Assembly: GCA_964016885.1 (NCBI GenBank)
Contig: OZ024742.1
Location: 377,580,001-377,644,000, forward strand
Direction of reading: 5' to 3'
Length of the DNA: 64,000 nt
Source of the DNA: Eledone cirrhosa
Taxonomy: Eukaryota
Shown here: positions 7,741 through 64,000 of the stretch, piece by piece
Layout: every line of letters begins with the position of its first letter
How positions within the stretch are numbered: the first letter of the stretch is position 1
Notes under the pieces: model-generated
Databases searched by the model: none
Seen by the model: the letters and a program-made list of their open reading frames with translations, nothing else
Told to the model about the DNA's origin: nothing
Program-made: the position numbers and the translations under genes

Positions 7741-9020
7741 GATGTGGTTTGTTAATGTCACAGAATCTACCTATCATACAAGATGTCGGTTGTTAATGTC
7801 ACAGAATCTACCTATCATACAAGATGTCGGTTGTTAATGTCACAGAATCTACCTGTGACACAAGATGTGGTTTGTTAACGTCACAGAATCTACCTGTGAC
7901 ACAAGATGTGGTTTGTTAATGTCACAGAATCTACCAGTGACACAAGATGTGGTTTGTTAACGTCACAGAATCTACCTGTGACACAAGATGTGGTTTGTTA
8001 ATGTCACAGAATCTACCTGTGACACAAGATGTGGTTTGTTAATGTCACAGAATCTACCTATGACACAAGATGTGGTTTGTTAATGTCACAGAATCTACCT
8101 ATGACACAAGATGTCGGTTGTTAATGTCACAGAATCTACCTATGACACAAGATGTCGGTTGTTAATGTCACAGAATCTACTTGTCACACAAGATGTGGGT
8201 TGATAATGTCACAGAATCTACCTATCACACAAGATGTGGTTTCGTAATGTCACAGAATCTACCTATGACACAAGATGTGGTTTCTTAATGTCACAGAATC
8301 TACCTATGACACAAGACCAGGTTTGTTAATGTCACAAACTACATTGGAGTGACACAAGACCAGGTTTGTTAATGTCACAAACTCTATTGGAGTGACACAA
8401 GACCAGGTTTGTTAATGTCACAAACTACATTGGAGTGACACAAGACCAGGTTTGTTAATGTGACAAATTCTATTGGAGTGACACAAGACCAGGTTTGTTA
8501 ATGTCACAAACGAGTGACACAAGATCAGGTTTGTTAATGTCACAAACTACATTGGAGTGACACAAGACCAAGTTTGTTAATGTCACACACTACATTAGAG
8601 TGACACGACACCAGGTTTGTTAATGTCACAAACTACATTGGAGTGACACAAGACCAAGTTTGTTAATGTCACACACTACATTAGAGTGACACGACACCAG
8701 GTTTGTTAATGTCACAAACTACATTGGAGTGACACGACACCAGGTTTGTTAATGTCACAAATTCTATTGGAATGACACAAGACCAGGTTTGTTAATGTCA
8801 CAAACTCTATTGGAGTGACACAAGACCAAGTTTGTTAATGTCACACACTACATTAGAGTGACACGACACCAGGTTTGTTAATATCACAAACTACATTGGA
8901 GTGACACGACACCAGGTTTGTTAATGTCACAAACTACATTGGAGTGACACGACACCAGGTTTGTTAATATCACAAACTACATTGGAGTGACACGACACCA
9001 GGTTTGTTAATGTCACAAAT
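7741..9020. repeat. Compound minisatellite: 41-bp units switching to related 43-bp units near 8315
   Basis: gatgtggtttgttaatgtcacagaatctacctatgacacaa then gaccaggtttgttaatgtcacaaactacattggagtgacacaa. Confidence 0.95.
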
Positions 9021-12411: not shown

Positions 12412-13078
12412 TCAGCAGCAACTACAGCGGCAGAAAGTGCAAGAGTAGAAACAGCAGCTGCAGCAGCAACTACAGCGGCAGAAAGTGCAATAGTACAAAC
12501 AGCAGATGCAGCAGCAACTACAGCAGCAGAATGTGCAATAGTAGAAACAGCAGCTGCAGCAGCAACTACAGCGGCAGAAAGTGCAATAGTAGAAACAGCA
12601 GATGCAGCAGCAACTACAGCGGCAGAAAGTGCAAGAGTAGAAACAGCAGATGCAGCAGCAACTACAGCGGCAGAAAGTGCAATAGTAGAAACAGCAGCTG
12701 CAGCAGCAACTACAGCGGCAGAAAGTGCAATAGTAGAAACAGCAGCTGCAGCAGCAACTACAGCGGCAGAAAGTGAAATAGTAGAAACAGCAGCTGCAGC
12801 AGCAACTACAGCGGCAGAAAGTGCAATAGTAGAAACATCAGATGCAGCAGCAACTACAGCGGCAGAAAGTGCAATAGTAGAAACAGCAGCTGCAGCAGCA
12901 ACTACAGCGGCAGAAAGTGCAATAGTAGAAACATCAGATGCAGCAGCAACTACAGCGGCAGAAAGTGCAATAGTAGAAACATCAGATGCAGCAGCAACTA
13001 CAGCGGCAGAAAGTGCAATAGTAGAAACAGCAGCTGCAGCAGCAACTACAGCGGCAGAAAGTGCAATAGTAGAAACAC
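12412..13078. repeat. 48-bp minisatellite, ~14 copies
   Basis: actacagcggcagaaagtgcaatagtagaaacagcagctgcagcagca; period 48 (12421 to 12469). Confidence 0.95.
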
Positions 13079-14308
13079 TAACAGCAGCACCAACAGCAGC
13101 ACCAACAACAGCAGCACCAACAGCAGCAACCCCAACAGCAGCACCACCACAGCAGCACCAACAGCAGCACCAACAACAGCAGCACCACCAACAGCACAAC
13201 CAACAGCAGCAAAACCAACAGCAGCAAAACCACCAACAGCAGCACAACCAACAACAGCACCACCAACAGCAGCACCACCAACAACAGCAGCACCAACAGC
13301 AGCCCCATCAGCAGCACCACCAACAGCAGCACCACCAACAGCAGCAAAACCAACAGCAGCACCACCAACAGCAGCAACACGAACAGCAGCACCAACAGCA
13401 GCACCACCAACAGCAGCACCAACAGCAGCACCAACAACAGCAGCACCAACAGCAACACAACCAACAGCAGCACCAACAACAGCAGCACCAACAGCAGCAC
13501 CAACAGCACCACCAACAGCAGCACCAACAACAGCAGCACCAACAGCAACACAACCAACAGCACCACCAACAACAGCAGCACCAACAGCAGCAGCACCAAC
13601 AGCAACACAACCAACAGCACCACCAACAACAGCAGCACCAACAGCAGCAACACCAACAGCAACACAACCAACAGCAGCACCAACAACAGCACCACCAACA
13701 GCACCACCAACAGCAGCACCAACAGCAGCAACACCAACAGCAACACAACCAACAGCAGCACCAACAGCAGCACCAACAGCAGCACCAACAGCAGCACCAA
13801 CAGCAGCAACACCAACAGCAGCACCAACAACAGCAGCACCAACAGCAGCAACCCCAACAGCAGCACCACCACAGCAGCACCAACAGCAGCACCAACAACA
13901 GCAGCACCACCAACAGCACAACCAACAGCAGCACCACCAACAGCAGCAAAGCCAACAGCAGCACCACCAACAGCACCACCAACAGCAGCACCACCAACAG
14001 CAGCAGCAGCACCACCACCAGCAGCACCACCAACAACAGCAAAACCAACAGCAGCACCACCAACAGCAGCACCACCAACAGCAGCACCAATAACAGCAAA
14101 ACCAACAGCAGCACCACCAACAGCAGCACCACCAACAGCAGCACCAATAACAGCAAAACCAACAGCAGCACCACCAACAGCAGCACCAATAACAGCAAAA
14201 CCAACAGCAGCACCACCAACAGCAGCACCACCAACAGCAGCACCAATAACAGCAGCACCAACAGCAGCAGCACCAACAACAGCACCAACAGCACCAACAA
14301 CAGCAGCA
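13079..14308. repeat. Cryptic CAG/CAA/CAC trinucleotide tract
   Basis: Plus strand almost lacks T; mosaic of CAN triplets. Confidence 0.95.
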
Positions 14309-14380
14309 ATGTGAGCACGTTAGCCATAGCAATGTCTGCTAGGATGTAATCCAATAACTAGGTCTAACATTAATACTATT

Positions 14381-17300
14381 AGTAAAGATGCTACCACTAA
14401 TACCATAGATCTGATGACACAGTCTGCTGAGACATTACTCTAGTAAAGATGCTACCACTAATACCATAGATCTGATGACACAGTCTGCTGAGACATTACT
14501 CTAGTAAAGATGCTACCACTAATACCATAGATCTGATGACACAGTCTGCTAAGACATTACTCTAGTAAAGATGCTACCACTAATACCAGAGATCTGATGA
14601 CACAGTCTGCTAAGACATTACTGTAGTAAAGATGCTACCACTAATACCATAGATCTGATGACACAGTCTGCTAAGACATTACTCTAGTAAAGATGCTACC
14701 ACTAATACCATAGATCTGATGACACAGTCTGCTAAGACATTACTCTAGTAAAGATACTACCACTAATACCATAGATCTGATGACACAGTCTGCTAAGACA
14801 TTACTCTAGTAAAGATGCTACCACTAATACCATAGATCTGATGACACAGTCTGCTAAGACATTACTCTAGTAAAGATGTTACCACTAATACCATAGATCT
14901 GATGACACAGTCTGCTAAGACATTACTCTAGTAAAGATGCTACCACTAATACCATAGATCTGATGACACAGTCTGCTAAGACATTACTGTAGTAAAGATG
15001 CTACCACTAATACCATAGATTTGATGACACAGTCTGCTAAGACATTACTGTAGTAAAGATGTTACCACTAATACCATAGATCTGATGACACAGTCTGCTA
15101 AGACATTACTGTAGTAAAGATGTTACCACTAATACCATAGATCTGATGACACAGTCTGCTAAGACATTACTGTAGTAAAGATGCTACCACTAATACCATA
15201 GATCTGATGACACAGTCTGCTAAGACATTACTGTAGTAAAGATGCTACCACTAATACCATAGATCTGATGACACAGTCTGCTAAGACATTACTGTAGTAA
15301 AGATGTTACCACTAATACCATAGATCTGATGACACAGTCTGCTAAGACATTACTCTAGTAAAGATGCTACGACTAATACCATAGATCTGATGACACAGTC
15401 TGCTAAGACATTACTGTAGTAAAGATGCTACCACTAATACCATAGATCTGATGACACAGTCTGCTAAGACATTACTGTAGTAAAGATGCTACCACTAATA
15501 CCATAGATCTGATGACACTGTCTGCTAAGACATTACTGTAGTAAATATGATACCACTAATACCATAGATCTGATGACACAGTCTGCTAAGACATTACTCT
15601 AGTAAAGATGCTACCACTAATACCATAGATCTGATGACACAGTCTGCTAAGACATTACTCTAGTAAAGATGCTACCACTAATACCATAGATCTGATGACA
15701 CAGTCTGCTAAGACATTACTCTAGTAAAGATGTTACCACTAATACCATAGATCTGATGACACAGTCTGCTAAGACATTACTCTAGTAAATATGATACCAC
15801 TAATACCATAGATCTGATGACACAGTCTGCTAAGACATTACTCTAGTAAAGATGCTACCACTAATACCATAGATCTGATGACACAGTCTGCTAAGACATT
15901 ACTCTAGTAAAGATGTTACCACTAATACCATAGATCTGATGACACAGTCTGCTAAGACATTACTCTAGTAAAGATGCTACCACTAATACCATAGATTTGA
16001 TGACACAGTCTGCTAAGACATTACTCTAGTAAAGATGCTACCACTAATACCATAGATCTGATGACACAGTCTGCTAAGACATTACTCTAGTAAAGATGTT
16101 ACCACTAATACCATAGATCTGATGACACAGTCTGCTAAGACATTACTCTAGTAAAGATGTTACCACTAATACCATAGATCTGATGACACAGTCTGCTAAG
16201 ACATTACTCTAGTAAAGATGCTACCACTAATACCATAGATCTGATGACACAGTCTGCTAAGACATTACTCTAGTAAAGATGTTACCACTAATACCATAGA
16301 TCTGATGACACAGTCTGCTAAGACATTACTCTAGTAAAGATGCTACCACTAATACCATAGATCTGATGACACAGTCTGCTAAGACATTACTCTAGTAAAG
16401 ATGCTACCACTAATACCATAGATCTGATGACACAGTCTGCTAAGACATTACTCTAGTAAAGATGTTACCACTAATACCATAGATCTGATGACACAGTCTG
16501 CTAAGACATTACTCTAGTAAAGATGCTACCACTAATACCATAGATCTGATGACACTGTCTGCTAAGACATTACTCTAGTAAAGATGCTACCACTAATACC
16601 ATAGATCTGATGACACAGTCTGCTAAGACATTACTCTAGTAAAGATGCTACCACTAATACCATAGATCTGATGACACAGTCTGCTAAGACATTACTCTAG
16701 TAAAGATGCTACCACTAATACCATAGATTTGATGACACAGTCTGCTAAGACATTACTCTAGTAAAGATGCTACCACTAATACCATAGATCTGATGACACA
16801 GTCTGCTAAGACATTACTCTAGTAAAGATGCTACCACTAATACCATAGATTTGATGACACAGTCTGCTAAGACATTACTCTAGTAAAGATGCTACCACTA
16901 ATACCATAGATCTGATGACACAGTCTGCTAAGACATTACTCTAGTAAAGATGCTACCACTAATACCATAGATCTGATGACACAGTCTGCTAAGACATTAC
17001 TCTAGTAAAGATGTTACCACTAATACCATAGATTTGATGACACAGTCTGCTAAGACATTACTCTAGTAAAGATGTTACCACTAATACCATAGATTTGATG
17101 ACACAGTCTGCTAAGACATTACTCTAGTAAAGATGCTACCACTAATACCATAGATTTGATGACACAGTCTGCTAAGACATTACTCTAGTAAAGATGCTAC
17201 CACTAATACCATAGATTTGATGACACAGTCTGCTAAGACATTACTCTAGTAAATATGATACCACTAATACCATAGATCTGATGACACAGTCTGCTAAGAC

Positions 17301-20175
17301 ATTACTCTAGTAAAGATGTTACCACTAATACCATAGATCTGATGACACAGTCTGCTAAGACATTACTCTAGTAAATATGATACCACTAATACCATAGATT
17401 TGATGACACAGTCTGCTAAGACATTACTCTAGTAAAGATGCTACCACTAATACCATAGATTTGATGACACAGTCTGCTAAGACATTACTCTAGTAAATAT
17501 GATACCACTAATACCATAGATCTGATGACACAGTCTGCTAAGACATTACTCTAGTAAAGATGTTACCACTAATACCATTGATCTGATGACACAGTCTGCT
17601 AAGACATTACTCTAGTAAAGATGCTACCACTAATACCATAGATCTGATGACACAGTCTGCTAAGACATTACTCTAGTAAAGATGTTACCACTAATACCAT
17701 AGATCTGATGACACAGTCTGCTAAGACATTACTCTAGTAAAGATGCTACCACTAATACCATAGATCTGATGACACAGTCTGCTAAGACATTACTCTAGTA
17801 AAGATGCTACCACTAATACCATAGATTTGATGACACAGTCTGCTAAGACATTACTCTAGTAAAGATGCTACCACTAATACCATAGATTTGATGACACAGT
17901 CTGCTAAGACATTACTCTAGTAAATATGATACCACTAATACCATAGATCTGATGACACAGTCTGCTAAGACATTACTCTAGTAAAGATGTTACCACTAAT
18001 ACCATAGATTTGATGACACAGTCTGCTAAGACATTACTCTAGTAAAGATACTACCACTAATACCAGAGATTTGATGACACAGTCTGCTAAGACATTACTC
18101 TAGTAAAGATGATACCACTAATACCATAGATTTGATGACACAGTCTGCTAAGACATTACTCTAGTAAAGATGCTACCACTAATACCAGAGATTTGATGAC
18201 ACAGTCTGCTAAGACATTACTCTAGTAAAGATGATACCACTAATACCATAGATTTGATGACACAGTCTGCTAAGACATTACTCTAGTAAAGATGCTACCA
18301 CTAATACCATAGATATGATGACACAGTCTGCTAAGACATTACTCTAGTAAAGATGCTACCACTAATACCAGAGATTTGATGACACAGTCTGCTAAGACAT
18401 TACTCTAGTAAAGATGCTACCACTAATACCATAGATTTGATGACACAGTCTGCTGAGACATTACTCTAGTAAATATGATACCACTAATACCATAGATTTG
18501 ATGACACAGTCTGCTAAGACATTACTCTAGTAAAGATGATACCACTAATACCATAGATTTGATGACACAGTCTGCTAAGACATTACTCTAGTAAAGATGA
18601 TACCACTAATACCATAGATCTGATGATACAGTCAGCTAAGACATTACTCTAGTAAAGATGCTAACACTAATACCATAGATTTGATGACACAGTCTGCTAA
18701 GACATTACTGTAGTTAAGATGCTACGACTAATACCATAGATTTGATGACACAGTCTGCTAAGACATTACTCTAGTTAAGATGCTACGACTAATACCATAG
18801 ATTTGATGACACAGTCTGCTAAGACATTACTCTAGTAAAGATGCTACCACTAATACCATAGATTTGATGACACAGTCTGCTAAGACATTACTGTAGTAAA
18901 GATGATACCACTAATACCAGAGATTTGATGACACAGTCTGCTAAGACATTACTCTAGTAAAGATGCTACCACTAATACCATAGATTTGATGACACAGTCT
19001 TCTAAGACAATACTCTAGTAAAGATGCTACCACTAATACCATAGATATGATGACACAGTCTGCTAAGACATTACTCTAGTAAATCTGATACCACTAATAC
19101 CATAGATCTGACGACACAGTCTGCTAAGACATTACTGTAGTAAAGATGTTACCACTAATACCATAGATCTGATGACACAGTCTGCTAAGACATTACTCTA
19201 GTAAATATGCTACCACTAATACCATAGATATGATGACACAGTCTGCTAAGACATTACTCTAGTAAAGATGATACCACTAATACCATAGATTTGATGACAC
19301 AGTCTGCTAAGACATTACTCTAGTAAAGATGATACCACTAATACCATAGATCTGATGACACAGTCTGCTAAGACATTACTCTAGTAAAGGTGATACCACT
19401 AATAGCATAGATTTGATGACACAGTCTGCTAAGACATTACTGTAGTAAAGATGTTACCACTAATACCATAGATCTGATGACACAGTCTGCTAAGACATTA
19501 CTCTAGTAAATATGCTACCACTAATACCATAGATATGATGACACAGTCTGCTAAGACATTACTCTAGTAAAGATGATACCACTAATACCATAGATCTGAT
19601 GACACAGTCTGCTAAGACATTACTCTAGTAAAGGTGATACCACTAATAGCATAGATTTGATGACACAGTCTGCTAAGACATTACTGTAGTAAAGATGTTA
19701 CCACTAATACCATAGATCTGATGACACAGTCTGCTAAGACATTACTCTAGTAAAGATGTTACCACTAATACCATAGATCTGATGACACAGTCTGCTAAGA
19801 CATTACTGTAGTAAAGATGTTACCACTAATACCATAGATCTGATGACACAGTCTGCTAAGACATTACTGTAGTAAAGATGATACCACTAATACCATAGAT
19901 CTGATGACACAGTCTGCTAAGACATTACTCTAGTAAATATGCTACCACTAATACCATAGATATGATGACACAGTCTGCTAAGACATTACTGTAGTAAAGA
20001 TGATACCACCAATACCATAGATTTGATGACACAGTCTGCTAAGACATTACTCTAGTAAATATGCTACCACTAATACCATAGATATGATGACACAGTCTGC
20101 TAAGACATTACTGTAGTAAAGATGATACCACCAATACCATAGATTTGATGACACAGTCTGCTAAGACATTACTCT
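14381..20175. repeat. 61-bp satellite, ~95 copies
   Basis: agtaaagatgctaccactaataccatagatctgatgacacagtctgctaagacattactct; register shifts one base per 60-nt line. Confidence 0.98.
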
Positions 20176-21858: not shown

Positions 21859-22031
21859 ATATAAATGGAAAAAATGAAACGAAATTTCATTTCCCACTCT
21901 TAGTACGGCTGTTACTTAAATATAAGTATGTACACGTACATACATATATGTATACAGACGTACAGCAGTATATATATATATATATACATACATGTACACA
22001 TATATATATGTACGTATGGATTCACCGAACA

Positions 22032-22210
22032 GTGGATTGGCAGTATCGGTAGAGGGTCGAACGCCATGCTTTCCAGCATAGTTACGTCCCTTTACGATCT
22101 GAGTTCAAATCCCGCCGAGGTTGACTTTGCCTTTCATCCTTACAGGGTCGATAAAATAAAGTACCAGTAATGAACTGGGTAATTGCTGGCCTTGTGCCTA
22201 AAGTAGAAAC
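22032..22210 (+). mobile_element. Deu/Nin-domain SINE inserted into the retrozyme-like unit
   Basis: Interrupts ttcaccgaaca|tttattataatgc, which is contiguous in the other copies. Confidence 0.85.
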
Positions 22211-22308
22211 ATTTATTATAATGCTCGGTGTGTTTGTAAACAAACTTCCCGTATTAAGCCGTAGTGTCCAGCAACCATCGTTGCTCGTTTGTTCAACACT
22301 GACAAGGA

Positions 22309-22351
22309 ACGCTGTACTAGTTCCAAGCTTATTAGCTATCGTCAGCAACGT
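22309..22351 (-). ncRNA. Hammerhead, probably inactive (GAAA to GGAA)
   Basis: Minus strand acgttg CTGACGA tagctaataagctt GGAAC ta GTA cagcgt. Confidence 0.7.
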
Positions 22352-22561
22352 TTACCTTCCTGCCAGATTGTTGAACGTCTGAAAGTATATACTTTCCTTA
22401 TGCATATTAAAGGCTGAAATTTCGTTTCATCTTTTCCGTTTATCGTTTTCGGTGCACCCGGCCGATTAACCCACTCGAAATGCAAATTGGGCTACTCAGC
22501 CGTTAATATGCATAAGGAAAGTATATACTTTCAGACGTTCAACAATCTGGCAGGAAGGTAT

Positions 22562-22604
22562 ACGTTGCTGACGATAGCTAATAAGCTTGAAACTAGTACA
22601 GCGT
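22562..22604 (+). ncRNA. Minimal type I hammerhead
   Basis: acgttg CTGACGA t agct aata agct t GAAAC ta GTA cagcgt; palindromic stem III ACTAGT. Confidence 0.9.
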
Positions 22605-22987
22605 TTCTTTGTCAGTGTTGAACAAACGAGCAACGATGGTTGCTGGACACTACGGCTTGATACGGGATGTTTGTTTACAAACACCCCGAGCATTATAATA
22701 AATGTTCGGTGAATCCATACGTATATATATATATGTGTGCATGTATGTATATATATACATACTACTGTACGTCTGTATACATATATGTATGTACGTGTAC
22801 ATACTTATATTTAAGTAACAGCCGTACTAAGAGTGGGAAATGAAATTTCGTTTCATTTTTTCCGTTTATCGTTTTCGGTGCACCCGGCCGATTAACCCAC
22901 TCGATATGCAAATTGGGCTACTCAGCCGTTAATATGCATAAGGAAAGTATATACTTTCAGACGTTCAACAATCTGGCAGGAAGGTAT

Positions 22988-23030
22988 ACGTTGCTGACGA
23001 TAGCTAATAAGCTTGAAACTAGTACAGCGT
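22988..23030 (+). ncRNA. Minimal type I hammerhead
   Basis: Identical to 22562-22604, 426 bp downstream. Confidence 0.9.
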
Positions 23031-23233
23031 TCCTTTGTCAGTGTTGAACAAACGAGCAACGATGGTTGCTAGACACTACGGCTTAATACGGGATGTTTGT
23101 TTACAAACACACCGAGCATTATAATAAATGTTCGGTGAATCATCCATACGTACATATATATATATGTGTGCATGTATGTATATATATATACATACTACTG
23201 TACGTCTGTATACATATATGTAAGTACGTGTAC

Positions 23234-23393
<160 letters not shown>

Positions 23394-51600: not shown

Positions 51601-51844
51601 GTAGTGGTTATAAACGTTACGCTCGGAATATGTACATATATATATATGTAGATAAATCTACCAAGAGTTTACGGTAGTGTCCAATCCGTATGAAGAACTC
51701 AATGTAATCCGGATATCATGGAAAGAAGAGATGCAATGAAAAATCACTTTCGGTGAAAGATAAACGGAATACAGAGTCAAGATAAAATATTAAAAAAATA
51801 ATGAATAAAACAATGAAACAGTTCCTTATATTAAACAAAAAAAG

Positions 51845-51999
51845 TTCATTATTTAACGATCGTTTCTAGGATATATATGTGTTAGAATTGGCATGCATAT
51901 TCAACAGATCTATGTACAAAATTATACAAAATTATACAAACTATCAAAATTAAATATACATACCAAACACATATATATGCCGTCTTCAGAAATAATGAA
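51845..51999 (-). ncRNA. Hammerhead with ~116-nt stem II region (mirror copy)
   Basis: Reverse complement of 52995-53149. Confidence 0.8.
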
Positions 52000-52994
52000 A
52001 TATATTTATTGATAATAACAACAATTCAAAATTTCAGGTCCGTTTGGGAACAGAGTTCAAATTGACCAATGAAAATACAAAAAATTTTATGCAGTTAGGT
52101 GTGTGTATATACATGTAATTTACTTCGTACACATATTTACATAAAGATATATGTTCACATGCATACGCATGCCAAAAAGATGTATGTAAATACAAAAATT
52201 CAAGGCTAATGTCTCTGTAAGTTTATAATCCACAGATAAAATGCGTATAGACACATAAATATGAAATAAATGTATACACACATTCATATACTCACACATA
52301 TTCGTACACTCACACACACACGCGCGTATATGCATAAACATACACATAACTACGAACATACATACACACACACACCCCCACACACATATATATGTGCATA
52401 TAGCATTATCATAAGCATATGGACATTAATGCACGCACATAAACACTGCCACACATATTTAGATCAGGATGCCGAAACCGTTGAATACTGACCTCTCCCC
52501 CCCCCCTCCCACCTAATTTCTGTATCCTGATCTAAATATGTGTGGCAGTGTTTATGTGCGTGCATTAATGTCCATATGCTTATGATAATGCTATATGCAC
52601 ATATATATGTGTGTGGGGGTGTGTGTGTGTATGTATGTTCGTAGTTATGTGTATGTTTATGCATATACGCGCGTGTGTGTGTGAGTGTACGAATATGTGT
52701 GAGTATATGAATGTGTGTATACATTTATTTCATATTTATGTGTCTATACGCATTTTATCTGTGGATTATAAACTTACAGAGACATTAGCCTTGAATGTTT
52801 GTATTTACATACATCTTTTTGGCATGCGTATGCATGTGAACATATATCTTTATGTAAATATGTGTACGAAGTAAATTACATGTATATACACACACCTAAC
52901 TGCATAAAATTTTTTGTATTTTCATTGGTCAATGTGAACTCTGTTCCCAAACGGACCTGAAATTTTGAATTGTTGTTATTATCAATAAATATAT

Positions 52995-53149
52995 TTCATT
53001 ATTTCTGAAGACGGCATATATATGTGTTTGGTATGTATATTTAATTTTGATAGTTTGTATAATTTTGTATAATTTTGTACATAGATCTGTTGAATATGCA
53101 TGCCAATTCTAACACATATATATCCTAGAAACGATCGTTAAATAATGAA
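52995..53149 (+). ncRNA. Hammerhead with ~116-nt stem II region
   Basis: ttcattattt CTGAAGA cggc atatatatgtgtt...aacacatatatat ccta GAAAC gatc GTT aaataatgaa; perfect 10-bp stem I, palindromic stem III ACGATCGT. Confidence 0.8.
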
Positions 53150-53203
53150 CTTTTTTTGTTTAATATAAGGAACTGTTTCATTGTTTTATTCATTATTTTT
53201 TTA

Positions 53204-53252
<49 letters not shown>

Positions 53253-53645: not shown

Positions 53646-53651
<6 letters not shown>

Positions 53652-54884
53652 GATAAATCTACCAAAATATACGGTAGTGTCCAATCCGTATGAAGAACTC
53701 AATGTAATCCAAATATCATGAAAAGAGAAGATGCATTCAAAAATTTTCGATGAAAATCATAGGAAAACAGAGTTAAGATAAATAAATAAAAACAATGAAT
53801 AAAAACAAAGAACAAGTTCCTTATATTAAATATTAAAAATTCATCATTTATGGTGAATTTTTAATATAAGGAACTTGTTCTTTGTTTTTATTCATTGTTT
53901 TTATTAATTTATCTTAACCCTGTTTTCCTATGATTTTCATCGAAAATTTTTGAATGCATCTTCTCTTTTCATGATATTTGGATTACATTGAGTTCTTCAT
54001 ACGGATTGGACACTACCGTATATTTTGGTAGATTTATCTACATACTTTGCTCCTAATTTTATACAGGTATTCATATTTTAATATATACTTTTTATATACA
54101 TAATTTTATAACTCCCTATATATATAGTTGAGCTCTCTTTCTTGTCCATTATCCATATTACAATGGAAAAACAATACTTGGGAACTTCTTTAAAGAATAT
54201 ACCGATACCTTCTAAGGATGAATTCTTACTTCTTATGATATACAAAAAAACAACCAATTCATCAAAAGGGTCAGATGGAGGGCCTACCACTTTGATAGAA
54301 AAACAAAACATATTGATAAGAAATATTTATATCATTTCACTACATATAAGAACCCACCACACAACTCCTTGCTTGAAAACTTCGAGAAAGACCTATTTAA
54401 CTTAATCAAACACCTCAGATTTAAGAAATATAAATCTAATTTTCAAAAAGATCTTGACTCTACCCTATTGGTTCTAAAAAATCTAGCAAAGTTCACGTCC
54501 ACTCTGACAAAACTGGAAATCTATACCACATGAATATTGATAATTACAATGACTTCATTTATAAAGAACGCAGGAAAAATTATTAAAAAAACAAATAATG
54601 CGGCTCTTACCAATATCAACAACAAAACATACAACATAGTAAATAAACTCAATATTGAAGACAGAACTGAACCTTTGGCACTGAAGAAACAACACTTTAA
54701 CCTGAAAGATCACAAACCTAACTTTAACTCTAATCCTTCTATAAGACTTATATGCCCTTCCAAGTCTGACATTGGCATCATTAGTAACATTTTTTTAGAT
54801 AGAATCATCCCACAATTAAGAATAAAATGATGACTTTTTTAATATAAGGAACTTGTTCTTTGTTTTTATTCATTGTTTTTATTA

Positions 54885-54919: not shown

Positions 54920-55361
<442 letters not shown>

Positions 55362-55554
55362 TATATTAGGTATAGGAAACAGTGGTCACAGCATTGGATA
55401 TTTGAGTTCTGCAAGTACTTGTGAATTTGCACATAGCATAACTAGGCTGTAGTACCACCGTGGAAACACCTGTAAGCACACGGAATAGATTACCTTTTTT
55501 ATGATGTCTACCTGTTATTATTCATTCTTTATATATATATATATATATATATAC

Positions 55555-56330
55555 AGTAAAAGTATGTGTTCCTACATGTAAAAAATACATATAGGATACA
55601 AGTATTATCCAACCGTATGCCAATGTGGTTCTATGGCAAGTTAATAAATTAATACGCCAGAACATATAAAATCAAGGTTTAGCAAATAGAGAAAAGTTCA
55701 CTGTACTTACTATATGTCCCTTTACCGCGGTTTCCGATCCCAAAATAAACAGATAATCGAAGCCGATATCTATTGAGAAAGAGATCTTCGTCAGATGGCT
55801 TTTCTCACTCGGAGAATATAAAATTCTCGAGTTTGAATCACAAACTGGCACCATACAAAGCTGTTCCCAAATGAGAGTGAATGAGAGAAGAAACAATCTT
55901 GTCTAGTGTCGTGTGCAAAGACAGAAAGCGGGGCGGACAGGTCAATGTCCTGCTACTAAAAATAGCAGCAGTTCAAACGACAAAAAGTCTTCTCAACCTT
56001 AGGTGATCTCTTTCTCAATGGAAATCCGCTTCGATTATCTGTTTATTTTGGGATCGGAAACCGCGGTAAAGGGACATATAGTAAGTACAGTGAACTTTTT
56101 GAAATTTGTTTTAAAACTTTTTCTCTAATTGCTAAACCTTGATTTTATATGTTCTGGCTTATTAATTTATTAACCTGCCATAGAACCACACTGGCATACG
56201 GTTGGACAATACTTATATCCCTATATGTATTTTTTACATGTAGGAACACATACTTTTACTATTATTCTCCCCTAAGGTTGAGAAGACTTTTGGTCGTTTG
56301 AACTGCTGCTATTTTTAGTAGCAGAACATT
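55555..56330. repeat. Two interleaved inverted repeats
   Basis: 55555-55787 vs 56004-56260; 55943-56002 vs 56270-56331. Confidence 0.85.
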
Positions 56331-56374: not shown

Positions 56375-56437
56375 GTATTTTATCTGATGAAAGCGTACCA
56401 AAGTTTTGGTACCCTTGAAATATATATAATAGAATAC
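56375..56437 (+). ncRNA. Type I hammerhead
   Basis: gtattttat CTGATGA aag c gtaccaaa gt tttggtac c ctt GAAA tatata TA atagaatac; a decayed inverted copy lies at about 56645-56705. Confidence 0.9.
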
Positions 56438-56812: not shown

Positions 56813-56916
56813 GTTTACATATATATATATATATATATATACATACATACATATACGTGTTTTGCAACGGGTCACTTTGTGGCTCAATGAAAAGTTAATA
56901 AATTAAATAATCAGAG

Positions 56917-57242
56917 CTATATATCATAAAACATGTCTATAGAATCATCAGATAAAATATATATCATTTCCTTTCCCAATTAGCATAATTAACTATATAA
57001 AAAATCGAATAGACGAGGCTATAAGAATAAGGCTTCTATGAAGAAATCTCCAACAAATAACCGAAACTAGCCCTTCGCGTCGGCCGCGACGCGAAGGGCT
57101 AGTTTCGGTTATTTGTTGGAGATTTCTTCATAGAAGCCTTATTCTTATAGCCTCGTCTATTCGATTTTTTATATAGTTAATTATGCTAATTGGGAGAGGA
57201 AATGGTATATATTTTATCTGGTGATTCTATAGACATGTTTTA

Positions 57243-57252
<10 letters not shown>
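56917..57252. repeat. Palindrome, ~165-bp arms, 4-nt loop with GC-rich apex
   Basis: ctagcccttcgcgtcg gccg cgacgcgaagggctag. Confidence 0.93.
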
Positions 57253-57276
<24 letters not shown>

Positions 57277-57845
57277 ATTTAGGAGTCGCAGAAACCCAAA
57301 TGCTGGATTTTTCCAACCATCCAGGGGTCCGGGTAAATTTTTCAATCATATATTTTTTTATTTGTTTGACCCGAATTACTTGGTCGTTTCTATGGCTTTG
57401 CGGATAATGGTTTTAACCATCGTCTCAGTGTGTTTTACCTTTTAACGTATGTTGTAGCTCTGGTTCGTTAGAATTATTGAGCGCTTGCCACACATCTCGG
57501 AAGTTGTTTTTCGCTAATTTCCAAAGCCGAAATACGATTCTCGATAATTTATATTTGTATATATATATATATATATATAAACAGGAAAAATGAAACGAAA
57601 TTTCATTTCCCACTCTTAGTATGGCTGTTACTTAAATATAAGTATGTACACGTACATACATATATGTATACAGACATACAGTAGTATGTATATATATATA
57701 TACATACATGCACACATATATATATGTACATATGGATTCACCGAACATTTATTATAATGCTCGGAGTGTTTGTAAACAAACATCCCGTATTAAGCCGTAG
57801 TGTCCAGCAACCATCGTTGCTCGTTTGTTCAACACTGACAAAGGA

Positions 57846-57888
57846 ACGCTGTACTAGTTTCAAGCTTATTAGCTATCATCAGCAACGT
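57846..57888 (-). ncRNA. Minimal hammerhead
   Basis: Minus strand acgttg CTGATGA tagctaataagctt GAAAC ta GTA cagcgt. Confidence 0.9.
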
Positions 57889-58265
57889 ATACCTTCCTGC
57901 CAGATTGTTGAACGTATATACTTACCTTATGCATATTAACGGCTGAGTAGCCCAATTTGCATATCGAGTGGGTTAATCGGCCGGGTGCACCGAATACGAT
58001 AAACAGGAAAAATGAAACGAAATTTCATTTCCCACTCTTAGTACGGCTGTTACTTAAATATAAGTATGTACACGTACATACATATATGTATACAGACATA
58101 CAGTAGTATGTATATATATATACATACATGCACACATATATATATGTACGTATGGATTCACCGAACATTTATTATAATGCTCGGAGTGTTTGTAAACAAA
58201 CATCCCGTATTAAGCCGTAGTGTCTAGCAACCATCGTTGCTCGTTTGTTCAACACTGACAAAGGA

Positions 58266-58308
58266 ACGCTGTACTAGTTTCAAGCTTATTAGCTATCATC
58301 AGCAGCCT
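58266..58308 (-). ncRNA. Minimal hammerhead, stem I variant
   Basis: Minus strand aggctg CTGATGA ... GAAAC ta GTA cagcgt. Confidence 0.85.
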
Positions 58309-58760
58309 ATACCTTCCTGCCAGATTGTTGAACGTATATACTTACCTTATGCATATTAACGGCTGAGTAGCCCAATTTGCATATCGAGCGGGTTAACACT
58401 GACAAAGGAACGCTGGTTGCTGGACACTACGGCTTAATACGGGATGTTTGTTTACAAACACTCCGAGCATTATAATAAATGTTCGGTGAATCCATACGTA
58501 CATATATATATATGTGTGCATGTATGTATATATATATACATACTACTGTATGTCTGTATACATATATGTATGTACGTATACATACTTATATTTAAGTAAC
58601 AGCCGTACTAAGAGTGGGAAATGAAATTTCGTTTCATTTTTCTTGTTTATCGTATTCGGTGCACCCGGCCGATTAACCCACTCGATATGCAAATTGGGCT
58701 ACTCAACCGTTAATATGCATAAGGTAAGTATATACGTTCAACAATCTGGCAGGAAGGTAT

Positions 58761-58803
58761 ACGTTGCTGATGATAGCTAATAAGCTTGAAACTAGTACAG
58801 CGT
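58761..58803 (+). ncRNA. Minimal hammerhead
   Basis: acgttg CTGATGA tagctaataagctt GAAAC ta GTA cagcgt. Confidence 0.9.
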
Positions 58804-59327
58804 TCCTTTGTCAGTGTTGAACAAACGAGCAACGATGGTTGCTGGACACTACGGCTTAATACGGGATGTTTAATATATTATAATAAATGTTCGGTGAATC
58901 CATACGTACATATATATATGTGTGCATGTATGTATATATATATACATACTACTGTATGTCTGTATACATATATGTATGTACGTGTACATACTTATATATA
59001 TATATATATATATATGCATTTTATATATATATATGCATTTTATCTTTACGCCGCGGATAAAATAAAATACCAGTAATACACTGGGTCGAATTAGTCGACT
59101 ACCCCTTTCCTTCAAATTCTGGCCTTGTTCCAAATGTAGAAACAATTTTTGTTATAAACCATTCATTGATGAAAATCGATAACTTTGAAGATTTCCACTG
59201 GCTTCTAACATTTTAAGACACTTTCTTTCCAAATATAAACAAAAAAAAATGGTAAAAGTGATAGTTGTAGAACTTCGGTGCCTAAGAGATGCACATTTTA
59301 CTATATTTGATTACGAATACCCGGGTA

Positions 59328-61867: not shown

Positions 61868-64000
61868 AACATGGTGTAGTGTTAGAGGAAGATATAACAT
61901 GGTGTAGTGTTAGAGGAAGATATAACATGGTGTAGTGTTAGAGGAAGATATAACATGGTGTAGTGTTAGAGGAAGATATAAGATGGTGTAGTGTTAGAGG
62001 AGGATATAACATGGTGTAGTGTTAGAGGAAGATATAACATGGTGTAGTGTTAGAGGAAGATATAACATGGTGTAGTGTTAGAGGAAGATATAAGATGGTG
62101 TAGTGTTAGAGGAAGATATAACATGGTGTAGTGTTAGACGAGGATATAACATGGTGTAGTGTTAGAGGAAGATATAACATGGTGTAGTGTTAGAGGAAGA
62201 TATAACATGGTGTAGTGTTAGAGGAAGATATAACATGGTGTAGTGTTAGTGGAAGATATAACATGGTGTAGTGTTAGAGGAAGATATAACATGGTGTAGT
62301 ATTAGAGGAAGATATAACATGGTGTAGTGTTAGAGGAAGATATAACATGGTGTAGTGTTAGAGGAAGATATGACATGGTGTAGTGTTAGAGGAGGATATA
62401 ACATGGTGTAGTGTTAGAGGAAGATATAACATGGTGTAGTGTTAGAGGAGGATATAACATGGTGTAGTGTTAGAGGAAGATATAAGATGGTGTAGTGTTA
62501 GAGGAAGATATAACATGGTGTAGTGTTAGAGGAAGATATAACATGGTGTAGTGTTAGAGGAAGATATAACATGGTGTAGTGTTAGAGGAGGATATAACAT
62601 GGTGTAGTGTTAGAGGAAGATATAACATGGTGTAGTGTTAGAGGAAGATATAACATGGTGTAGTGTTAGAGGAAGATATAACATGGTGTAGTGTTAGAGG
62701 AGGATATAACATGGTGTAGTGTTAGAGGAAGATATAAGATGGTGTAGTGTTAGAGGAGGATATAACATGGTGTAGTGTTAGAGGAAGATATAAGATGGTG
62801 TAGTGTTAGAGGAAGATATAACATGGTGTAGTGTTAGAGGAAGATATAAGATGGTGTAGTGTTAGAGGAAGATATAACATGGTGTAGTGTTAGAGGAGGA
62901 TATAACATGGTTTAGTGTTAGAGGAAAATATAACATGGTGTAGTGTTAGAGGAAGATATAACATGGTGTAGTGTTAGAGGAAGATATAACATGGTGTGGT
63001 GTTAGAGGAAGATATAAGATGGTGTAGTGTTAGAGGAGGATATAACATGGTGTAGTGTTAGAGGAAGATATAACATGGTGTAGTGTTAGAGGAAGATATA
63101 ACATCGTGTAGTGTTAGAGGAAGATATAAGATGGTGTAGTATTAGAGGAAGATATAACATGGTGTAGTATTAGAGGAAGATATAACATGGTGTAGTGTTA
63201 GAGGAGGATATAACATGGTGTAGTGTTAGAGGAAGATATAACATGGTGTAGTGTTAGAGGAAGATATAAGATGGTGTAGTGCTAGAGGAAGATATAACAT
63301 GGTGTAGTGTTAGAGGAGGATATAACATGGTGTAGTATTAGAGGAAGATATAACATGGTGTAGTATTAGGGGAAGATATAACATGGTGTAGTGTTAGAGG
63401 AGGATATAACATGGTGTAGTGTTAGAGGAGGATATAACATGGTGTAGTGTTAGAGGAAGATATAACATTGTGTAGTGTTAGAGGAAGATATAACATGGTG
63501 TAGTATTAGAGGAAGATATAACATGGTGTAGTGTTAGAGGAGGATATACCATGGTGTAGTATTAGAGGAAGATATAACATGGTGTAGTGTTAGAGGAAGA
63601 TATAACATGGTGTAGTGTTAGAGGAAGATATAACATGGTGTAGTGTTAGAGGAGGATATAACATGGTGTAGTATTAGAGGAAGATATAACATGGTGTAGT
63701 ATTAGAGGAAGATATAACATGGTGTAGTGTTATAGGAAGATATAACATGGTGTAGTGTTAGAGGAGGATATAACATGGTGTAGTGTTAGAGGAAGATATA
63801 ACATGGTGTAGTGTTAGAGGAAGATATAACATGGTGTAGTATTAGAGGAAGATATAACATGGTGTAGTGTTAGAGGAGGATATAACATGGTGTAGTGTTA
63901 GAGGAGGATATAACATGGTGTAGTGTTAGAGGGAGATATCACATGGTGTAGTATTAGAGGAAGATATCACATGGTGTAGTATTAGAGGAGGATATACCAT
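61868..64000. repeat. 28-bp satellite, at least ~76 copies, runs off the window
   Basis: aacatggtgtagtgttagaggaagatat. Confidence 0.98.

What the first reader, a model, noticed from the sequence alone, without database searches (positions are those of the whole stretch)
57579..58995. Second retrozyme-like cluster with the same terminus but an independent inversion
Seen: the same unit as 21863-23235 but with CTGATGA instead of CTGACGA (a change at the variable core position) and a small deletion after ttgaacgt. The left end matches those at 21863 and 54920. The inversion point differs and includes a ~20-nt re-copied patch (aacactgacaaaggaacgct). Cluster-specific variants are shared by all its units. 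Inference: each cluster was copied from one template by more than one pass, as expected for reverse transcription of a circular RNA.
Basis: partly seen in the sequence, partly recalled or inferred. Interest (0 to 1): 0.75.

Follow-up and report, generated by a model that had tools for sequence, protein, structure and literature searches.

The report
Two-armed hammerhead retrozyme, Penelope-type insertion
This is one insertion of a 422-base non-coding repeat with a hammerhead (predicted self-cutting RNA) motif that occurs over 11,000 times in this animal genome, and its back-to-back layout in TA repeats, with one long and one short outer end, suggests it was likely copied by a Penelope-type retrotransposon enzyme from both ends of a DNA break, probably off a small RNA circle.

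Summary
In detail: two head-to-head arms (1.9 and 1.4 units) of a 422-bp type I hammerhead repeat lie in (TA)n, joined by a 21-nt re-copied patch. The ribozyme core has 11,548 exact matches genome-wide. This cluster has no private allele shared by its units, and they are no closer to each other (1.9-4.0%) than to other clusters (0.4-1.4%). The family gives better evidence. Arms start at two fixed sites about 57 nt apart, and 50 of 52 classable two-armed insertions pair one of each. That is the Penelope 'tail', which in vitro marks two RT start sites. Opposite arms share rare alleles more than matched controls (5/28 vs 6/328; not significant at the strictest cut-off), and arms read through the cleavage site without a scar. 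Best reading: a non-LTR retrozyme inserted by double-ended Penelope-type priming on one RNA. A circle is likely but not shown: an uncleaved multimer fits too, and some long arrays grew after insertion. No RNA data; partner enzyme not identified. The scan reported this anatomy earlier for other repeat families in this genome. New member of a known kind.

The parts
57560..57578 (.). (TA)n target tract at the left outer end
   Evidence: sequence; 65 of 87 young arms of this end type have a perfect (AT)5 directly before the terminus
57579..58396 (-). Left arm: unit positions 1-422 (57579-58000) then 1-398 (58001-58396); RNA sense is the minus strand; starts at the long ('tail') terminus T1
57579..57635 (-). 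~57-nt 'tail' between the two fixed termini (T1 and T58), with a predicted GAAAUGAAAU-UUCG-UUUCAUUUU hairpin; present at only one outer end of the insertion
57846..57888 (-). Type I hammerhead, copy 1: 6-bp helix I, CUGAUGA, 4-bp helix II with U.U at its base, GAAA, 2-bp palindromic helix III (ACUAGU); predicted cleavage GUA between 57852 and 57851
   Evidence: fits the description in PMC4209133 (passages read)
58266..58308 (-). Hammerhead copy 2, core intact, two substitutions in helix I
58395..58415 (+). 21-nt templated patch = unit 253-273, ending at the predicted cleavage site; 2-nt microhomology on each side (AA, TG)
58414..58995 (+). Right (inverted) arm: unit 235 to 1 (58414-58648), then 422 to ~58 (58649-58995); RNA sense is the plus strand; outer end is the short terminus T58; ~14-bp deletion near unit 181-199
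58761..58803 (+). Hammerhead copy 3, intact; predicted cleavage between 58797 and 58798
58996..59015 (.). (TA)n target tract at the right outer end (a target-site duplication cannot be told inside the microsatellite)
21863..23236 (.). Sister insertion A of another subfamily, same T1/T58 anatomy, with a SINE-like insert at 22032-22207
54920..55176 (.). Sister insertion C: short two-armed insertion (T1 arm ~147 nt, T58 arm ~100 nt), truncated before the ribozyme

Best explanation
This is one insertion of an abundant non-coding 422-bp repeat with a type I hammerhead motif (a non-LTR retrozyme), likely made when a Penelope-like RT/endonuclease cut a (TA)n tract and both cut ends primed copying of the same RNA, probably a monomeric circle. 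Shown: the unit and its copy number; the hammerhead consensus with one compensatory change; (TA)n targets; two fixed outer ends about 57 nt apart, paired one long with one short in 50 of 52 insertions; variable inner ends, often joined at microhomologies; arms that run past one unit length and through the cleavage site without a scar. Inferred: multimeric transcripts self-cleave through the dimer-dependent ribozyme and are ligated to circles; one (dimeric) PLE protein binds the tail and starts one cDNA at T1 and the other at T58; each cDNA runs a random distance with strand displacement; host end-joining fuses the two cDNA 3' ends, here with a 21-nt templated patch; the units then decay independently. 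My odds: double-ended Penelope-type priming about 0.85, both arms from one RNA about 0.7, circular rather than linear multimeric template about 0.55.
For: Core pattern 11,548 hits, control 0. Helix I pair changes on both sides (U-G 16, A-U 10, G-U 8 of 38 distinct rows); 92.9% of cells paired vs 30-47% for slid controls. 50 long/short vs 2 same/same pairs, binomial p 3e-13; 42 vs 2 in loci picked by pattern only. 46 of 50 insertions exceed one unit in summed arm length; 18 of 100 arms cross the cleavage site twice or more; 20 of 50 fit neither direction of fold-back. Opposite arms disagree at 40 of 763 common-site comparisons vs 8,169 of 46,860 between clusters; alleles seen in at most 1 other locus are shared in 5 of 28 clusters vs 6 of 328 haplotype-matched control pairs, p 1e-4. 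Single clusters carry a rare allele in both arms (L149, L150, L171). 20 of 44 junctions have at least 2 nt of microhomology. A coding PLE-like family in the same genome and window shows the same head-to-head, two-terminus, (TA)n anatomy. PMC11167929 (parts 1-2 of 4 read): a PLE protein cuts and extends both strands, starts at two sites that bound the tail, and is modelled as a dimer. PMC4209133 (passages): short palindromic helix III works as a dimer, so cleavage is thought to be allowed in multimers and avoided in monomer circles.
Against: This cluster has no private allele shared by its units and shares no rare allele between its arms. At the strictest cut-off (allele in no other locus) sharing is 2 of 28 vs 5 of 328, p 0.07; control pairs are not independent, and L198's shared alleles lie beside the inversion centre, where conversion is likely. 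Long arrays L093, L164, L144 and L143 show two-unit periodicity with lag-2 distance down to 0% and lag-1 up to ~4%, best read as duplication after insertion. Some clusters mix subfamilies within or between arms (L135, L182, L096, L155, L097), which one monomer circle cannot give. [quoted passage not shown] The coding family has the same anatomy, and my pattern scan found no hammerhead in its terminal repeat, so the anatomy does not need a circle. No pLTR homologous to the unit was found in the 18 coding loci examined.
Confidence: 0.6

Rival explanations
1. Same Penelope-type double priming, but the template is an uncleaved linear multimeric transcript from a tandem source array; no circle is involved.
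For: [quoted passage not shown] The coding family makes the same layout. Mixed-subfamily arms exist.
Against: Units of short young arrays differ mainly by private changes, and some share a rare allele in all units. By inspection of the 44 resolved junctions none recurs in an unrelated cluster, as transduction from a source array would give (small sample). A dimer-active hammerhead is expected to cut multimers and spare monomer circles (PMC4209133).
Confidence: 0.27
2. A monomer was inserted, and the tandem and inverted copies arose later at DNA level (unequal crossover, fold-back, conversion).
For: Lag-2 duplications in long arrays and a few palindromic centres (L151, L164, L198) show that such events occur.
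Against: 20 of 50 insertions fit neither fold-back direction. The strict long/short pairing has no DNA-level cause. In this cluster the units share no derived change that would mark a later duplication.
Confidence: 0.06
3. A LINE (non-PLE) enzyme inserts the RNA by L1-style twin priming.
For: Inverted arms with microhomology junctions also occur in L1 insertions (recalled).
Against: No poly(A). The second start is fixed near position 58 instead of lying next to the first arm's end, and the arms overlap in sequence. Tail-at-one-end, inverted copies and (TA)n bias are described for PLEs (PMC8557442, PMC3846280, passages read).
Confidence: 0.05
4. Assembly artefact (fold-back read) or segmental duplication of cluster A.
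For: One duplicated pair of loci exists in the sample (L136/L137).
Against: Arms differ by 2-4%, the junction is not a palindrome and holds a patch, flanks are unrelated, and the anatomy recurs at 50 separate loci.
Confidence: 0.02

Closest known systems
Animal non-LTR retrozymes (Cervera and de la Pena 2020, PMC7229834, passages and Discussion read; Li, Clavereau and Pollet, bioRxiv 10.64898/2026.07.22.740005, parts 1-3 of 5 read)
   Same: Non-coding tandem unit of a few hundred bp, GC 37%, one type I hammerhead per unit, strongly self-paired RNA, dimers to multimers, high copy number; PLE mobilisation via circRNA is proposed there.
   Different: Unit slightly above the 170-400 nt range of the 2020 paper. 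In the text I read, neither paper describes two fixed termini, (TA)n targets or two-armed inverted insertions ('inverted' and 'microsatellite' have 0 occurrences in PMC7229834). Expression, cleavage and circles are untested here, and no homologous pLTR was found.
Endonuclease-positive Penelope-like elements (PMC8557442, PMC3846280, passages; PMC11167929, parts 1-2 of 4)
   Same: Partial tandems, head-to-head inverted 5'-truncated copy, tail at one end only, microsatellite targets, microhomology 5' junctions, hammerhead in the repeat.
   Different: No ORF (longest stop-free stretch 84 codons). Tail ~57 nt rather than 30-40. In vitro no difference in start site between strands was seen, whereas here long and short ends are paired in 50 of 52 insertions.
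Non-autonomous Chlamys elements such as MRC1 (PMC8557442, passage)
   Same: Non-coding PLE passengers that form multicopy head-to-tail insertions.
   Different: They resemble their autonomous partner at the 3' end and most Chlamys lack a canonical hammerhead; here the partner is unknown and a hammerhead is present.

Membership tests
Non-LTR retrozyme | Type I hammerhead with conserved core in each unit | tested here: met
   Core CUGANGA...GAAA found in 218 of 256 units examined; helices supported by pairing counts and one two-sided change. Rfam gathering scan did not detect it.
Non-LTR retrozyme | Short tandem units without LTR or ORF | tested here: met
   420-424-bp period; longest stop-free frame 84 codons.
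Non-LTR retrozyme | Dispersed multicopy family with unrelated flanks | tested here: met
   11,548 core matches; flanks differ.
Non-LTR retrozyme | Transcribed and accumulating as circular RNA | not testable with these tools
   No RNA holder was listed; this is no evidence either way.
Non-LTR retrozyme | Self-cleavage activity | not testable with these tools
   Needs in vitro transcription of monomer and dimer.
Non-autonomous passenger of an EN+ PLE | Head-to-head inverted, 5'-truncated copy beside partial tandems | tested here: met
   77 of 81 strand switches are head-to-head; 66 simple two-armed arrays.
Non-autonomous passenger of an EN+ PLE | Tail extension at one end only (two RT start sites) | tested here: met
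   Termini at unit 1 and ~58; 50 of 52 pairs long/short.
Non-autonomous passenger of an EN+ PLE | Insertion bias for AT-rich microsatellites | tested here: met
   65 of 87 T1 ends follow a perfect (AT)5; 32 of 64 T58 ends follow a perfect (TA)6, most others a near-perfect tract.
Non-autonomous passenger of an EN+ PLE | Sequence homology to the pLTR of an autonomous PLE | tested here: inconclusive
   Only one coding family (18 loci) compared: best hit 17 nt. A shared 12-mer around T1 is a terminus in 1 copy only. Other PLE families were not searched.
Autonomous PLE | RT plus GIY-YIG ORF | tested here: not met
   No ORF in the unit.

The most novel reading that the evidence does not exclude
One dimeric Penelope-type enzyme loads a single small circular RNA and fires two reverse transcriptases, one from each end of a cut (TA)n tract, at two fixed sites 57 nt apart; both roll round the circle with strand displacement. 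The thousands of insertions would then be an in vivo record of coupled, asymmetric twin rolling-circle priming, giving direct genomic evidence that animal retrozyme circles are the transposition template and a rule (one long end, one short end) that the in vitro PLE system has not shown.
Probability: 0.4. Interest if true: 0.7.

Novelty: new member of a known kind. Interest (0 to 1): 0.42.

Why it matters
The element class is known and PLE mobilisation has been proposed from co-occurrence and pLTR similarity. How PLEs make their tandem and inverted insertions is still called open in the papers read (PMC8557442, PMC11167929). This family gives a large natural dataset with a sharp rule (50 of 52 long/short pairing; arms longer than one unit; shared haplotypes between arms). 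It yields a cheap test: give a PLE protein this RNA as circle or linear multimer with a (TA)n target. The single locus adds little by itself, and the scan has already noted the same anatomy for other families in this genome.

Tried and rejected
Rfam at gathering threshold found no hammerhead; the motif was identified by consensus and pairing counts. Sequencing-run search: no RNA holder listed. Laying four contig runs on 58170-58490 listed no contig bridging the junction; most records were not shown, so this says nothing either way. My first exact-match junction caller failed near mutations and was replaced (some 'insertions of 10 nt or more' there are still mis-calls). Hypothesis that arms stop at the cleavage site (linear monomer template): rejected, 3 of 179 inner ends fall in 268-278 vs 4.7 expected; the patch ending there, with L185 and L187, stays a post hoc curiosity. 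Hypothesis that T58 arms stall where they meet the T1 primer on a circle: not supported, first-lap ends in 415-452 are 5 of 29 (T58) vs 4 of 21 (T1). Simple fold-back: rejected. The neighbouring coding family as partner: not shown; Pfam and PDB gave no match for its ORF, so its PLE identity rests on motifs read by eye (motif names recalled). One pattern count for its termini was not obtained. Literature: 7 searches listed no paper on this family or on coupled long/short pairing; the library lacks most subscription journals, I read no supplements, and those of the bioRxiv preprint are closed, so family lists there may include it. Loci L061-L090 were not analysed apart from three re-fetched regions; L210, arrays touching a locus edge, 12 complex arrays and duplicate L137 were left out of the counts.

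Full report
Observation. The region 57579-~58995 holds two head-to-head arms of a 420-422-bp unit between (TA)n tracts. With 57579-58000 as unit positions 1-422, the left arm reads 1-422 then 1-398; a 21-nt patch equal to unit 253-273 follows (58395-58415); the right arm, on the other strand, reads ~58-422 then 1-235 from its outer end. The cluster at 21863-23236 is 93-96% identical, and a third short two-armed copy lies at 54920-55176. The CTGATGA/CTGACGA difference and the 8-bp deletion are real. Flanks of the three clusters are unrelated.

The unit. The minus strand of the reference unit folds far better than shuffles (z -7.2 linear; -7.5 circular) and has no ORF. It carries a type I hammerhead: 6-bp helix I, CUGAUGA, 4-bp helix II with U.U at the base, GAAA, a 2-bp palindromic helix III and a GUA cleavage triplet between unit 274 and 273. 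Rfam did not detect it. On 41 copies (38 distinct; I left out gapped rows), 92.9% of cells pair, against 30-47% for slid controls, and one helix I pair changes on both sides between old and young subfamilies; the rows are related, so this is one or two events. The geometry matches the canonical metazoan type I motif that needs a dimer to cleave (PMC4209133, passages). A 27-nt core pattern has 11,548 exact matches in the 3.0-Gb genome, reversed control 0.

Are the variants cluster-specific? No. The deletion pattern has 4,106 matches; the exact cluster-A pattern has 111. Among about 115 other loci, every allele shared by all units of this cluster occurs elsewhere; the rarest are 187A (5 of 112) and 98A (8 of 115), in loci picked for similarity. 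The unit junction of this minor subfamily has 26 matches at 15 places. Units of this cluster differ from each other by 1.9-4.0% and from the nearest unit elsewhere by 0.4-1.4%. That fits independent decay from a common master and is no evidence for a single template.

Family anatomy. I parsed 142 stretches: 72 around the first core matches on contig 1, 48 around further deletion-pattern matches, 17 picked for similarity to this cluster, 3 of the cluster-A type, and the two window clusters. They gave 66 simple two-armed arrays, 74 single arms and 12 complex ones; arrays at a locus edge and L210 were dropped. Outer ends fall at two fixed sites: unit position 1 and position ~58, nearly always against (TA)n, with 2-5 nt of TA microhomology. 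After removing one duplicate locus, 50 of 52 arrays with both ends classable pair a long end with a short end (p 3e-13; 42 of 44 in pattern-picked loci); 13 more have one unclassed end. 77 of 81 strand switches are head-to-head. Inner ends are scattered, with no excess at the cleavage site (3 of 179 vs 4.7 expected). Of 44 resolved junctions, 20 show at least 2 nt of microhomology, 4 show 1 nt, 4 are blunt and 16 have inserts, some mis-called. Summed arm length exceeds one unit in 46 of 50; 18 of 100 arms cross the cleavage site at least twice; 20 of 50 cannot be a fold-back of either arm. No common indel lies at the cleavage site. So the template was not a unit-length cleaved linear RNA: it was a circle or an uncleaved multimer.

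One template for both arms? In the 28 of 50 arrays with enough overlap, opposite arms disagree at 5.2% of common-site comparisons (40 of 763) vs 17.4% between clusters (8,169 of 46,860). Alleles seen in at most one other locus are shared in 5 of 28 vs 6 of 328 haplotype-matched controls (p 1e-4); at most two, 8 of 28 vs 13 of 328; in no other locus, 2 of 28 vs 5 of 328 (p 0.07). L149, L150 and L171 carry a rare allele in both arms. Against: this cluster shares none; conversion may explain L198; several clusters mix subfamilies; long arrays (L093, L164, L144, L143) show two-unit periodicity with near-identical lag-2 units, best read as duplication after insertion.

Comparison with Penelope-like elements. 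Partial tandems, an inverted 5'-truncated copy, a 30-40-bp tail at one end and (TA)n bias are described PLE features (PMC8557442; PMC3846280; passages). In vitro a PLE protein cut and extended both strands, started at two internal sites that bound the tail, is modelled as a dimer, and did not need ribozyme cleavage (PMC11167929, parts 1-2 of 4). This genome has a coding family with open frames of about 820 aa whose RT and GIY-YIG-like motifs I recognised by eye (Pfam and PDB gave no match). Its copies, two of them in this window (51645-53212, 53646-54880), are head-to-head in (TA)n with two fixed ends (9 at position 177-185, 6 at 321, 1 at 206). It shows no clear homology to the unit, and a shared 12-mer at T1 is a terminus in one copy only, so the partner is not identified.

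Mechanism. Shown: anatomy, termini, pairing rule, read-through of the cleavage site. Inferred: a PLE protein binds the tail, nicks both strands of (TA)n, and primes one cDNA at position 1 and the other at ~58 on the same RNA; both run a variable distance; end-joining fuses them, here with a templated patch. Independent choice of start site by each end would give half long/short pairs, so the observed rule points to coupling on one particle. A circle is favoured because a dimer-active hammerhead should cut multimers and spare monomer circles, and because circles are the main RNA form in other retrozymes (PMC7229834, Discussion). It is not shown: no RNA holder was listed.

Novelty. Non-LTR retrozymes and their proposed PLE origin are in print (PMC7229834; bioRxiv 10.64898/2026.07.22.740005, parts 1-3 of 5). 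Seven searches listed no paper on this family or on the pairing rule; supplements were not seen. Earlier scan notes on other families in this genome report the same anatomy (unchecked, read after I had formed my view); none matched this sequence or place. Verdict: new member of a known kind, with a useful and testable mechanistic rule; interest 0.42.

Noticed in passing
window 51645-53212 and 53646-54880: Two head-to-head insertions of a coding PLE-like family in (TA)n, each with the two fixed ends of that family; the second holds a broken N-terminal ORF piece (54165-54830). Copies with open frames of about 820 aa exist elsewhere (e.g. L237).
   Followed up: partly
window 56380-56430 (+): A second, unrelated type I hammerhead-like motif (CTGATGA, longer helix II, GAAA, TA-palindromic helix III; fold z -3.7); related sequence occurs in other loci (L244, L243, L236).
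   Followed up: partly
window 55550-56250 and 56900-57245: Two further inverted-repeat structures next to (TA)n tracts, the second a near-perfect palindrome with a GC-rich centre; probably other PLE-type two-armed insertions.
   Followed up: no
L093, L164, L144, L143, L147: Long arrays show a two-unit higher-order period; in L147 the two alternating units differ by the subfamily 8-bp indel. Why duplications favour dimers is unexplained; a dimeric template is not excluded for L147.
   Followed up: partly
window 58395-58415; L185; L187: The patch and two arm ends stop at or within 2 nt of the predicted cleavage site; no significant excess overall, but they may be rare run-offs from cleaved linear RNA.
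   Followed up: partly
window 22032-22207: SINE-like insertion inside cluster A's left arm, flanked by a short AACA duplication.
   Followed up: no
window 14380-20175, 61868-64000, 7741-9019: Satellites of 61 bp (95 copies), 28 bp (76 copies or more) and 41-43 bp.
   Followed up: no
window 12413-14308: 48-bp and 15/27/42-bp tandem repeats with strong A and C skew that could encode a low-complexity A/T/P-rich, mucin-like exon.
   Followed up: no
L136 and L137 (contig 1, about 930 kb apart): The same insertion with the same flanks in inverted orientation: a segmental duplication.
   Followed up: no
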